Sequence record: OL539459.1
Reading direction: 5' to 3' (one strand)
Origin: Escherichia phage vB_EcoD_Fulano1
DNA length: 51,759 nucleotides
This document shows, piece by piece, positions 41,582-46,362 of this stretch. The position numbers were made by a program, and so were the translations under genes. Position 1 is the stretch's first letter, and every line of letters begins with the position of its first letter. The notes beneath the pieces are model-generated. The model had not been told where the DNA came from. It ran no database searches and saw nothing but the letters and a program-made list of their open reading frames with translations.

Positions 41582-41860
41582 CTAATTAATACCCACCACG
41601 TTAAAACTTACAGCTTTTGTTCTAAACACATACGCTTCAACAGCATCACCAAATACACGAATTTTTCCATAGCCGTACTGCGCATTCATATTTCGCCAAA
41701 CCGTCCTGTTAGAGCAGAGCGCGCTACCAGTCTTAATAAGCGTATCCATCTCTTTTCTTAGATCGCGATAGTCCAGCCAGAATCTAAAGGCACGCTGTTT
41801 AATTCGCGCCGCCTTGATTTTTTCTCTTGCGCTATTGAAATCATTCTTTTCGTATGCCAT
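41582..41860 (-). CDS. hypothetical protein
   Basis: 92 aa ORF in leftward early block. Confidence 0.35.
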   Translation of the reverse strand: MAYEKNDFNSAREKIKAARIKQRAFRFWLDYRDLRKEMDTLIKTGSALCSNRTVWRNMNAQYGYGKIRVFGDAVEAYVFRTKAVSFNVVGIN

Positions 41861-42057
41861 TAAATGATCTCCATGTATGTTTCAAAGCCATTTAACTTGA
41901 ACAGGCCGTTTTCACATTTGCGCACGTTCCAAGTTAGCCCTGAGTGGTACGCCTCCATATCATCAAGGTCAATGGTGATTTCAGCACCTTTCTTAAAGAT
42001 TCCTTTCTCGTGAGTGGTGTCACGCTGTACAACTTTAACATCAACTTGATTTTCCAT
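41860..42057 (-). CDS. hypothetical protein
   Basis: 65 aa, RBS GAGGA, downstream of recurrent element. Confidence 0.35.
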   Translation of the reverse strand: MENQVDVKVVQRDTTHEKGIFKKGAEITIDLDDMEAYHSGLTWNVRKCENGLFKLNGFETYMEII

Positions 42058-43921: not shown

Positions 43922-44383
43922 ATGGAGCAAGAATTTATTAACCGCGCGGCATTTTGCGACACGTTGCGAGATATTGGAAGGGCTATCGGTAGCGGTGAGC
44001 GAGAAACCGTATTTATGCCTGAAATCTACCTGAGAAGTCGAGTTGAGGGGGGCGACGCAATTACAGCATCGTACATGCGCCAGGTGGTCAACCGTGTGCC
44101 AGAAGTAAAGCAAAAAGGCGTGATCAGCATTAAGCGAAAGGTGACTGATGAGGGTGATGGCTTTGTGTTTACGCTCACTGAAGCCAAAAGCAAGCCTCGC
44201 GTGCTGACTGGAGACGATATAGCGAAACTTGAAATCAAGTGGCGAGCAAAGTTTATTGCTCAACTTCTGAAAACCCAGCCGAGAATCAGCGACCTGGAAG
44301 GCGAGCGCCTGGAGGGTGCGGCAATCGCACTTGAGAGAATGAATGAAATGCTCAACGAGATGGTAAAGGTGGGGGATGAATAG
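43922..44383 (+). CDS. hypothetical protein
   Basis: 153 aa, RBS AAGGAG. Confidence 0.4.
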   Translation: MEQEFINRAAFCDTLRDIGRAIGSGERETVFMPEIYLRSRVEGGDAITASYMRQVVNRVPEVKQKGVISIKRKVTDEGDGFVFTLTEAKSKPRVLTGDDIAKLEIKWRAKFIAQLLKTQPRISDLEGERLEGAAIALERMNEMLNEMVKVGDE

Positions 44384-44649
44384 TGAATAAGGCATTAATT
44401 GGAGTTTTGATTGCAATTGCTACCCTGACCGGATGCGAAAAGGCATCTGAATCAACGGTAGTCGTAGGCGTGGAGTCAGATTTTAAAGTCGGTCGCCTGT
44501 TTACTGTTGATGGATGCACTGCGTACCGATTCTATGATAACGGTCACGCGATCTATTACACCAACTGCAAGGGCACGACTAGCTGGGAAGTGTCGAAAAG
44601 CAACGGCAAGGTAACGACAACAGAACATATGACAGTGGAGACAAAATAG
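44383..44649 (+). CDS. lipoprotein (signal peptide near-identical to Cor-like gene)
   Basis: GTG start overlapping previous stop; MNKALIGVLIAIATLTGC lipobox. Confidence 0.5.
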   Translation: MNKALIGVLIAIATLTGCEKASESTVVVGVESDFKVGRLFTVDGCTAYRFYDNGHAIYYTNCKGTTSWEVSKSNGKVTTTEHMTVETK

Positions 44650-44744: not shown

Positions 44745-45638
44745 ATGTTAAAACTTGCTGACATTAAATTCCCGATCACTTTCGAATCTCGTGGCGTTGG
44801 TCATTACATTTTTACAGATGAGAAAACATGCCATAACGTTTGGTTGCACAGCGATAAGCCAAGCCCATCAAAAATGGAGATTCAGCACTTCATTGATGCG
44901 CATAATCAGCACTACAACTCAATCCGTGACTACGGCTACGCAATGCCAGGCTACACATGCTTGCACTACAAGCCATATAAGGGCCAGGTGTTACCAGTGC
45001 GCTCACCGGAACGCGCAGAGATTCCGATGGTCAATATGAAAACCTGCGACTACAAAAAGCTGTGGTGCTTAAGTCTGGACAATATCAAGTATCCGATCAC
45101 GTTCCACACGACTGGTAAGTCAACGATTCGCTACACATCGCGCGACAATGGCGTTTATAGCGATGGTACGAAATCAGAGTTGAAAGTTGATTTCTTTGTC
45201 AACGGTCACAACAAATTCAATCCGCACAACGAAGAGGATAAAGTGTACTACGTGGAAGATATTACAAAACACTTGTTTGGCGAAACTCCATTCGGCGGCG
45301 GGAAGACGTCAATTCAAAAAATCATTGGCGAGGAGATCCACAAGGCAGCCGCTGAAATGAAAGCACCAGGAGGCTGGCGTATTGATAAGAGCGCAATTTC
45401 CTATCAAGAAATCGTAACGCAGGGCGCTATTGAAGACATGCCAGTTGCCGCCACGCTAAAAGGCGTTCAGCTTGATGACGGCGTGTGGTATGAATTAACG
45501 GCTAAGCCAAAGACGATCGAGATTCATGATGATGTTGTTATTCTTCTGCTTCATTACGGTAGCGCAAAAAACCGTGCCGTTGCGGGTGAGATTAGCATCA
45601 AGCGCGGAACGATGGTTAAGTGGAAGGTTAAGGTGTAA
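44745..45638 (+). CDS. hypothetical protein with internal tandem duplication
   Basis: 297 aa; LADIKFPITFESRG and LDNIKYPITFHTTG repeat units. Confidence 0.45.
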   Translation: MLKLADIKFPITFESRGVGHYIFTDEKTCHNVWLHSDKPSPSKMEIQHFIDAHNQHYNSIRDYGYAMPGYTCLHYKPYKGQVLPVRSPERAEIPMVNMKTCDYKKLWCLSLDNIKYPITFHTTGKSTIRYTSRDNGVYSDGTKSELKVDFFVNGHNKFNPHNEEDKVYYVEDITKHLFGETPFGGGKTSIQKIIGEEIHKAAAEMKAPGGWRIDKSAISYQEIVTQGAIEDMPVAATLKGVQLDDGVWYELTAKPKTIEIHDDVVILLLHYGSAKNRAVAGEISIKRGTMVKWKVKV

Positions 45639-45658
45639 ATAGCACGAATTGTTAAAAC
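45639..45658 (+). promoter_or_regulatory. recurrent element, GAATT variant ATAGCACGAATTGTTAAAAC
   Basis: follows stop TAA; TATAAT 45676-45681 in loop of GGCC stem. Confidence 0.45.
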
Positions 45659-45711
45659 TCAAATGTGGGGCCAGGTATAATGGCCTCACTTTCAACGAAG
45701 GAGATAAAACG

Positions 45712-45916
45712 ATGTACATTATCAAGAAGATGAAATGCGTTTCCGTTAATTATTGTTGTGCTGGAATGTTCAAGCCTAGCGAAATCTATACGGCGCAAAA
45801 ACTGAATCTTTTTACGTGAGCAATAGTAAGGGGCATCGCATGTTCCTGAACGGCGGCGAAGGCACTAAGGTTATGGCACACGCTATGGTAATGGCTGAAT
45901 TTGAGGAGGTGAAATA
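45712..45916 (+). pseudogene. frameshifted paralog of 45917..46150
   Basis: ORF 45712..45819 (35 aa) and -1 frame 45780..45916 together align to the downstream protein; frames meet at A5 run 45797-45801. Confidence 0.35.
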
Positions 45917-46150
45917 ATGATCATCGAAAACAACTTTCTTTGCGTTAAGAGCAATCGACCATTCTTCACGCCTGGCAAGGTGTACCAGGGCAAGAAGGAC
46001 ACAAGAGATGGTCACTCTTATCATGTTCACTGCAACAACGGATACAAGTTTTACCTCAACGGTAATAATGGAACTGAGATTGTTGCGTTTGAAAACGTAA
46101 TTGCCGAGTTCGAGCAGATTACAGACGCGGAATTTGAGGAAGTGAAATAA
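45917..46150 (+). CDS. hypothetical protein
   Basis: 77 aa, RBS GAGGAGG. Confidence 0.4.
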   Translation: MIIENNFLCVKSNRPFFTPGKVYQGKKDTRDGHSYHVHCNNGYKFYLNGNNGTEIVAFENVIAEFEQITDAEFEEVK

Positions 46151-46152
46151 TC

Positions 46153-46362
46153 ATGGATCAGAACAAAACAGCAAAATATAAATTCACTGACGACTACGGA
46201 GACACTATCGACGTTTATCAGCGTGGGAATCAGATCTTTATCGATGGCACTTTCGAATATGGCCGGATGCCAGACTTTCGGGGAATACTTTCGGCAGATA
46301 GCGCGCGACGCATGGCGAACGTGTTAAATAAACTGGCGGCAAAGATTGAGGCGATGCAATGA
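46153..46362 (+). CDS. hypothetical protein
   Basis: 69 aa ORF. Confidence 0.4.
   Translation: MDQNKTAKYKFTDDYGDTIDVYQRGNQIFIDGTFEYGRMPDFRGILSADSARRMANVLNKLAAKIEAMQ

What the first reader, a model, noticed from the sequence alone, without database searches (positions are those of the whole stretch)
45712..46150. Tandem paralog pair in which the upstream copy is frame-disrupted at an A5 run
ORF 45712..45819 (MYIIKKMKCVSVNYCCAGMFKPSEIYTAQK...) matches the N-terminus of 45917..46150. The -1 frame open from 45780 to 45916 (...SFYVSNSKGHRMFLNGGEGTKVMAHAMVMAEFEEVK) matches its C-terminus, including the shared ending AEFEEVK. The frames cross at AAAAA (45797-45801). So the upstream copy is either a pseudogene, a homopolymer sequencing error, or a low-efficiency slippage site.
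Basis: seen in the sequence. Interest (0 to 1): 0.5.

Follow-up and report, generated by a model that had tools for sequence, protein, structure and literature searches.

The report
Small phage gene broken by deletion
One of two neighbouring duplicate small genes of unknown function in a T1-like coliphage was knocked out by a 13-base deletion, not by a slip in the nearby run of five A's, so this is an ordinary strain-specific pseudogene in a dispensable, frequently reshuffled part of the phage genome.

Summary
The window is the genome of Escherichia phage vB_EcoD_Fulano1 (Drexlerviridae, Hanrivervirus). The tandem paralog pair is real: the two-frame translation of 45712-45917 aligns with the 77-aa product of 45917-46150 (BLASTP E=5e-12). 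Both halves of the upstream copy hit a family profile on their own (E=1e-8 and 1.6e-20).

The frame break is not at the A5 run (45797-45801), which is unchanged. The window lacks 13 nt (AAWCATCAACCGG) between 45805 and 45806. That segment is present in every relative examined: all 60 listed of 83 matching phage records, and 7 loci read directly. In relatives the gene is an intact 72-75-aa ORF.

The deletion junction was found nowhere else. The genome was sequenced with Illumina at 204-645x, so a homopolymer error is excluded and an assembly artefact is unlikely. There is no slippery heptamer, no stimulatory RNA structure and no conservation, so programmed frameshifting is not supported. The copy also carries Gly-to-Ser at an invariant glycine.

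The parts
45652..45681 (+). Sigma-70-like promoter (TTAAAA-18 nt-TATAAT) ahead of the gene pair. It is conserved in relatives.
   Evidence: 10 of 12 matches. The sequence is conserved in the alignment. This is a consensus match only; function is inferred.
45712..45819 (+). N-terminal remnant of the upstream paralog (35 codons). Start is ATG 45712 with an AAGGAG Shine-Dalgarno at 45698-45703. The remnant ends at an out-of-frame TGA at 45817-45819. It carries Gly23Ser (AGC, 45778-45780) at a glycine that is invariant in the family.
   Evidence: (HMM E=1e-8).
45797..45801 (+). It has the same length as in intact relatives and is not the lesion.
   Evidence: It is A6 only in the unrelated contig L018.
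45805..45806 (+). Junction of the 13-nt deletion. Relatives have AAACATCAACCGG or AATCATCAACCGG between these two bases. Placement is ambiguous by one A.
   Evidence: All 60 listed records span 84 nt (82 nt for the two aligned from query base 3) where the window has 71 (69).
45806..45917 (+). C-terminal remnant of the upstream paralog, now in the -1 frame. The amino-acid sequence from SFYV... to ...EFEEVK is identical to swan01. The stop TAA at 45915-45917 overlaps the next ATG.
   Evidence: HMM E=1.6e-20.
45917..46150 (+). Intact downstream paralog (77 aa, FULANO1_71, phrog_9122). It is predicted to be a six-stranded beta-barrel with a C-terminal helix.
   Evidence: (pLDDT 88.5).
45894..45921 (+). 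Left copy of a 28-nt direct repeat (GCTGAATTTGAGGAGGTGAAATAATGAT). It encodes AEFEEVK plus the stop and contains the Shine-Dalgarno for the next gene.
   Evidence: 0 matches expected by chance.
46127..46154 (+). Right copy of the 28-nt direct repeat (25 of 28 identical). Together the two copies bracket the downstream-paralog cassette.
   Evidence: Single-copy relatives have one repeat. The mosaic breakpoint to the next gene lies here.

Best explanation
The locus is a pair of tandem, paralogous accessory genes of the phrog_9122 family. Their products are 72-81 aa and are predicted to be small six-stranded beta-barrels. The pair sits behind a sigma-70-like promoter in the mosaic accessory arm of the Hanrivervirus phage vB_EcoD_Fulano1.

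The upstream copy is the one present in all relatives. In this genome it has been inactivated by a 13-bp deletion between 45805 and 45806. Translation from ATG 45712 therefore leaves the ancestral frame after Leu31 and stops at TGA 45817-45819. The remaining 37 ancestral codons lie stranded in the -1 frame. The copy also carries a Gly-to-Ser change at an invariant glycine.

It is a recent, lineage-specific pseudogene. The downstream copy is intact and presumably supplies whatever the family does. That copy is bracketed by 28-nt direct repeats, which explains by simple recombination why related phages have one or two copies.

Shown: the deletion, its uniqueness, the paralogy, the repeats and independent lesions in other phages. 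Inferred: that the deletion is real in the phage rather than an assembly artefact, that no functional product is made, and that the gene is dispensable.
For: - **Intact relatives.** They have a single 72-75-aa ORF here.
- **The gap.** A 13-nt gap is the only indel between start and stop.
- **The junction query.** All 60 listed of the 83 phage records that match it carry the extra 13 nt.
- **Uniqueness of the deletion junction.** It is absent from IMG/VR and JGI metagenome contigs, while the intact junction is found there in 4 contigs as a positive control.
- **Uniqueness of the truncated product.** It is a singleton among about 15 billion proteins and maps to Fulano1 only.
- **Sequencing.** Illumina at 204-645x coverage after three rounds of plaque purification.
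- **Second lesion.** Gly23Ser lies at a column invariant in 19 diverse family members.
- **Independent lesions elsewhere.**
  - A 72-nt deletion in L015.
  - The same deletion plus a nonsense codon and a 1-nt deletion in L016.
  - A6 in L018.
  - Further deletion or fusion alleles P0021, P0022, P0025 and P0026.
- **Copy number.** It varies between 1 and 2, with the 28-nt repeat at the junctions.
Against: - Only one assembly exists, so the reads were not inspected here.
- The C-terminal part is still identical in protein sequence to that of relatives. The event is therefore very recent and could have arisen during enrichment or plaque purification rather than in nature.
- A low level of spontaneous -1 slippage at CAA-AAA-C or CTT-TTT-A would yield a near-full-length protein lacking 4 loop residues. 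That cannot be excluded by sequence alone.
Confidence: 0.87

Rival explanations
1. Assembly or sequencing artefact: the phage really has the intact gene and the 13 nt were lost in the consensus.
For: The allele is a singleton. Apart from the gap, the surrounding sequence is ordinary.
Against: Sequencing was Illumina paired-end at 204-645x with de novo assembly. The missing 13 nt are not a homopolymer or tandem repeat, so they are not a typical error. A second unusual change, Gly23Ser, lies in the same gene.
Confidence: 0.06
2. Recoding: ribosomes slip -1 at the A-run (CAA AAA C) or the T-run (CTT TTT A) inside the 45780-45819 frame overlap. This would produce a protein of about 68 aa that lacks four residues of the beta2-beta3 loop.
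For: Both frames are open across 45780-45819. A single-tRNA -1 slip on AAA or TTT is possible in principle (established knowledge of E. coli tRNA-Lys slippage). The deletion lies in a predicted loop.
Against: There is no X XXY YYZ heptamer in the zero frame. There is no upstream Shine-Dalgarno-like stimulator. Downstream RNA folds no better than shuffles (z=0.21). The arrangement is not conserved in any relative, all of which have a continuous ORF. A5 or T5 is too short for transcriptional slippage.
Confidence: 0.03
3. Split gene: termination at TGA 45817-45819 is coupled to re-initiation at the overlapping GTG 45816-45818. The N-terminal 35-aa and C-terminal 33-aa fragments would both be made and might complement each other.
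For: A GTGA stop/start overlap exists. The C-terminal ORF from 45816 is intact.
Against: In relatives that GTG is simply the Val codon of FYVS, so the overlap is a by-product of the deletion. No Shine-Dalgarno precedes it. The cut falls inside the beta-barrel. No relative has such an arrangement.
Confidence: 0.02

Closest known systems
Intact orthologues of the upstream copy in Tempevirinae phages (e.g. swan01 SWAN_00053, KarlJaspers bas06_0070, SECphi27 HOS92_gp31); PHROG family phrog_9122
   Same: Same position after the 297-aa gene and before the polynucleotide kinase gene. Same promoter and Shine-Dalgarno. DNA is 92-93% identical to the closest two-copy relatives (about 91% to KarlJaspers and its like), and the amino-acid sequence of the C-terminal remnant is identical. 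Both window copies hit phrog_9122.
   Different: The window copy lacks 13 nt, is frameshifted and has Ser at the invariant Gly. No member of the family has a known function.
Gp54 of phage Bas11 (PDB 9AXB; Pfam PF25180), the small non-essential trigger of the CapRelSJ46 defence protein
   Different: There is no detectable sequence homology (hhalign probability 0.2%). The PHROG differs (7421 versus 9122). There is no PF25180 hit. Foldseek against the PDB did not recover 9AXB. The window has its own true Gp54 orthologue elsewhere, at 41860-42057 on the minus strand. Nothing shows that the phrog_9122 proteins trigger any defence system.
Programmed -1 frameshift sites (e.g. dnaX A AAA AAG; tail assembly chaperone G/GT)
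   Same: Two overlapping frames, with a short A-run inside the overlap.
   Different: There is no heptameric slippery site, no stimulatory element and no conservation. The overlap was created by a unique deletion.

Membership tests
phrog_9122 small-protein family (both paralogs) | Significant match to the family profile | tested here: met
   The downstream copy scores E=2.8e-10. The intact swan01 upstream orthologue scores E=2.2e-4. Distant members P0041 and P0036 score 1e-33 and 1.2e-9. Both window fragments hit the family HMM built here.
Processed or decayed pseudogene of a protein-coding gene | A frame-disrupting lesion relative to intact orthologues, with homology continuing in another frame | tested here: met
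   A 13-nt gap relative to 7 loci read directly and the 60 listed phage records. The C-terminal homology lies in the -1 frame.
Processed or decayed pseudogene of a protein-coding gene | The lesion is real in the organism, not an artefact | not testable with these tools
Illumina at 204-645x coverage makes an artefact unlikely.
Programmed -1 ribosomal frameshift | Slippery heptamer X XXY YYZ in the zero frame within the overlap | tested here: not met
   The zero-frame codons are GCG CAA AAA CTG AAT CTT TTT ACG TGA. No such heptamer is present.
Programmed -1 ribosomal frameshift | Stimulatory downstream RNA structure | tested here: not met
   Folding 45796-45880 gives z=0.21 against shuffles.
Programmed -1 ribosomal frameshift | Two-frame arrangement conserved among relatives | tested here: not met
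   All relatives have one continuous ORF.
Homopolymer-length error or phase variation at the A-run | A-run length differs from that of intact alleles | tested here: not met
   The window and all intact relatives have A5. Only contig L018 has A6.
Gp54 family (Pfam PF25180, CapRelSJ46 trigger) | Sequence match to PF25180 or 9AXB | tested here: not met
   There is no PF25180 hit for the paralogs. hhalign probability is 0.2%. The PDB profile search did not find 9AXB.
Gp54 family (Pfam PF25180, CapRelSJ46 trigger) | Same six-stranded beta-barrel fold | tested here: inconclusive
Gp54 family (Pfam PF25180, CapRelSJ46 trigger) | Activates CapRelSJ46 | not testable with these tools
   This needs a co-expression toxicity assay as in PMC11578894.

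The most novel reading that the evidence does not exclude
The phrog_9122 proteins might be structural cousins of Gp54: small, dispensable beta-barrels that some bacterial immune sensor recognises, or that inhibit one. The repeated independent knock-outs of the upstream copy would then be escape mutations selected by such a defence system rather than neutral decay. Those knock-outs are the 13-nt deletion here, the 72-nt deletion in L015 and L016, A6 in L018, and other deletion or fusion alleles. The second paralog would be a diverged, non-triggering replacement.
Probability: 0.1. Interest if true: 0.55.

Novelty: new member of a known kind. Interest (0 to 1): 0.17.

Why it matters
In itself it matters little. 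It is a strain-specific pseudogene in a hypothetical accessory gene.

It does correct the GenBank annotation. FULANO1_70 is annotated as a 56-aa TTG-start protein, but it is the remnant of a 72-aa gene.

It is also a clean example of how tandem cassettes in T1-like phages are gained and lost at a short repeated gene-end sequence.

The one lead of wider interest is that this uncharacterised family appears to share the rare fold of the CapRel trigger Gp54 and is repeatedly inactivated in nature. That makes it a reasonable candidate to test as a defence trigger or anti-defence protein.

Tried and rejected
- **Indel in the A5 run.** Rejected by alignment.
- **Programmed frameshift.** Rejected: no heptamer, no structure and no conservation.
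- **Other carriers of the deletion.** None in the phage records, IMG/VR, JGI metagenomes or the 15-billion-protein collection.
- **Function from sequence.**
  - No Pfam domain, and PHROG lists the function as unknown.
  - The exhaustive HMM search found only a narrow family plus spurious hits to repeat proteins such as cadherin, Ig and PA14.
  - The PDB profile search gave only designed 'Cake' propeller repeats at sub-threshold per-domain scores.
- **Sequence link to Gp54.** Profile-to-sequence and profile-to-profile comparisons were both negative.
- **Foldseek against the PDB.** No significant hits.
- **P0020 (54 aa).** It looked like another truncated allele, but its locus L017 is intact. 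It is a gene-caller start artefact.
- **Literature.** No published function or escape-mutant mapping was found for this gene. The SECphi27 trigger for Mokosh is a different, 128-aa protein.

Full report
**What the window is.** The truncated ORF and its neighbour match proteins UGV22671.1 (FULANO1_70) and UGV22672.1 (FULANO1_71) exactly. Both come from Escherichia phage vB_EcoD_Fulano1, on a contig of 51,759 bp, which is the window length. The genome announcement (PMC9119101) gives accession OL539459 and SRA run SRR17231380. It assigns the phage to Hanrivervirus (Drexlerviridae). The phage was isolated on E. coli BW25113 after at least three rounds of plaque purification and was sequenced with Illumina at 204-645x coverage. 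Megablast of the locus finds 109 related Tempevirinae records. The closest are about 93% identical here.

**Checking the observation.**
- The two-frame product aligns with the 77-aa product of 45917..46150 at BLASTP E=5e-12.
- In phage swan01 both copies are intact, and they align at E=2e-14.
- An HMM of the family run over every six-frame ORF of the window hits only three segments: the downstream copy (9e-38), the -1-frame C-terminal piece (1.6e-20) and the 0-frame N-terminal piece (1e-8).

The paralogy and the frame break are therefore real and far beyond chance.

**Where the break is.**
- The upstream gene was aligned with its intact orthologues in swan01, JLBYU01, SECphi27, JLBYU07, KarlJaspers and the metagenome loci L017 and L018. 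These are 72-73-aa ORFs (93 aa as annotated from an upstream TTG start in SECphi27 and JLBYU07). The more divergent 75-aa Poky allele was aligned as well.
- The alignments show one gap only. The window lacks 13 nt (AAACATCAACCGG or AATCATCAACCGG) between ...CAAAAACTGA (ending at 45805) and ATCTTTTTACG (starting at 45806).
- The A-run is A5 in the window and in every intact allele.
- A 71-nt query across the junction matched 83 phage records. Of the 60 listed, 58 span 84 nt and the two aligned from query base 3 span 82 nt, which is 13 more than the window in every case.

The frames 'cross' because of a 13-nt deletion four bases 3' of the A-run, not because of a change in the run.

**Is it an error or a recoding site?**
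- A homopolymer miscall cannot remove 13 non-repetitive bases, and Illumina data at more than 200x coverage make an assembly artefact unlikely. The reads could not be inspected here.
- The deletion junction is absent from the phage records, IMG/VR and JGI metagenomes. The intact junction is found in IMG/VR, which serves as a positive control.
- The truncated protein is a singleton among about 15 billion proteins.
- For recoding, the zero-frame codons GCG CAA AAA CTG AAT CTT TTT ACG TGA contain no X XXY YYZ heptamer.
- RNA downstream folds no better than shuffled sequence (z=0.21), and no relative has a two-frame arrangement.
- Basal single-tRNA slippage on AAA or TTT cannot be excluded. It would give a product lacking four loop residues, but nothing suggests it is selected.

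**Signs of decay and dispensability.** The remnant also carries AGC (Ser) at codon 23. All 19 diverse family members aligned here have Gly at that position. The same base change creates the TAG that bounds the -1 frame at 45777-45779.

Other phages carry independent lesions in the same gene:
- L015, from a 51.5-kb contig, has an in-frame 72-nt deletion between TGAAAT repeats.
- L016, from a 49.3-kb contig, has the same deletion plus a nonsense codon and a 1-nt deletion.
- L018 has A6 at the A-run, which frameshifts the gene.
- Proteins P0021, P0022, P0025 and P0026 are further frameshift, deletion or fusion alleles.

No second family member is encoded in the 2.5-kb stretches read around the gene in L015 and L016, so the gene appears dispensable even without the paralog. 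P0020, which looked truncated, is only a mis-called start.

**Architecture and copy number.**
- A promoter-like site (TTAAAA-18 nt-TATAAT, 45652-45681) and an AAGGAG Shine-Dalgarno precede ATG 45712. The GenBank start of FULANO1_70 (TTG 45649) lies upstream of that promoter and is probably wrong.
- The downstream copy is bracketed by a 28-nt direct repeat at 45894-45921 and 46127-46154 (25 of 28 identical; no matches expected by chance). The repeat encodes AEFEEVK plus the stop and contains the Shine-Dalgarno of the next gene.
- Relatives carry either two copies (swan01, Poky, JLBYU01) or one copy joined through a single repeat to the next gene (SECphi27, JLBYU07, KarlJaspers).
- The mosaic switch to a different allele of the following 69-aa gene also falls exactly at this repeat.

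Recombination at this gene-end repeat is therefore the likely route of cassette gain and loss. This is an inference.

**What the proteins might be.**
- There is no Pfam domain, and PHROG lists phrog_9122 as unknown function.
- An exhaustive HMM search of 1.8 billion representatives finds only a narrow phage family plus spurious repeat-protein hits.
- AlphaFold2 on a 16-sequence alignment gives a confident model (pLDDT 88.5). It has six strands, a long beta1-beta2 loop and a C-terminal helix.
- BFVD shows that the upstream-copy orthologue of phage tonn has the same predicted fold (TM 0.85-0.89). Many other small uncharacterised siphophage proteins match weakly.

Gp54 is a non-essential 66-aa protein that directly activates the CapRelSJ46 defence protein. 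Bas11 escapes by loss-of-function mutations in it. Its six-stranded barrel was described as a rare topology (PMC11578894).

The link is structural only:
- hhalign probability is 0.2%.
- The PHROG differs (7421 versus 9122).
- There is no PF25180 hit.
- Foldseek against the PDB did not recover 9AXB.

The window encodes a true Gp54 orthologue elsewhere, at 41860-42057 on the minus strand (PF25180 E=8e-39; 9AXB E=3.8e-17). The paralog pair is therefore not filed as Gp54 family. The resemblance is a lead for experiments, no more.

**Verdict.** The best explanation is a recent, strain-specific pseudogene made by a 13-bp deletion in a dispensable tandem accessory gene of a T1-like phage. This is ordinary and of low interest. 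A modest side lead is that the family may be Gp54-like and is recurrently lost.

Noticed in passing
window 41860-42057 (-): A 65-aa gene that is a true orthologue of Bas11 Gp54, the CapRelSJ46 trigger (PF25180 E=8e-39; PDB 9AXB E=3.8e-17). It lies about 3.7 kb from the paralog pair, on the opposite strand.
   Followed up: partly
window 45894-45921 and 46127-46154: A 28-nt direct repeat (25 of 28 identical) at the 3' ends of both paralogs brackets the downstream cassette. Single-copy relatives have one repeat, and the mosaic breakpoint to the next gene lies at it. It is probably a recombination junction for cassette gain and loss.
   Followed up: yes
This frameshifts its copy of the gene (product P0031, 42 aa). 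It could be a real mutation or an assembly error.
   Followed up: partly
L015:1201-1347 and L016:1201-1377: Two near-complete phage contigs share a 72-nt deletion between TGAAAT repeats in the same gene. L016 also has a nonsense codon and a 1-nt deletion, making it a multi-hit pseudogene. The 2.5-kb locus read around it encodes no second family member.
   Followed up: yes
window 45649-45711: The GenBank start of FULANO1_70 (TTG 45649, 56 aa) lies upstream of the promoter-like site at 45652-45681. The same over-extended TTG start is annotated in SECphi27 and JLBYU07 (93 aa). The real start is most likely ATG 45712, which has an AAGGAG Shine-Dalgarno.
   Followed up: partly
window 44745-45638 (+): The 297-aa hypothetical protein (phrog_7116) has an internal repeat: residues 2-55 align with residues 109-157 (BLASTP E=6e-6).
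   Followed up: no
window 46153-46362 (+): The 69-aa gene after the pair (phrog_14011) is a divergent allele shared with SECphi27 and JLBYU07 but not with swan01 or Poky, whose version is 73 aa. In the window the downstream paralog ends ...EEVK*. In swan01 and Poky it ends ...EEVKDENK* and overlaps the next gene.
   Followed up: partly
protein P0026 (ENA, 677-nt contig): A 41-aa product fuses the N-terminus of the lipoprotein-like gene (window 44383-44649) to the C-terminus of the upstream paralog. This implies a deletion of about 1.4 kb that removes the 297-aa gene in some phage.
   Followed up: no
proteins P0002 and P0004 (121 aa; P0002 on 275 contigs): A common variant of the downstream paralog reads through its stop codon into about 40 extra residues in another frame of the next gene.
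   Followed up: no
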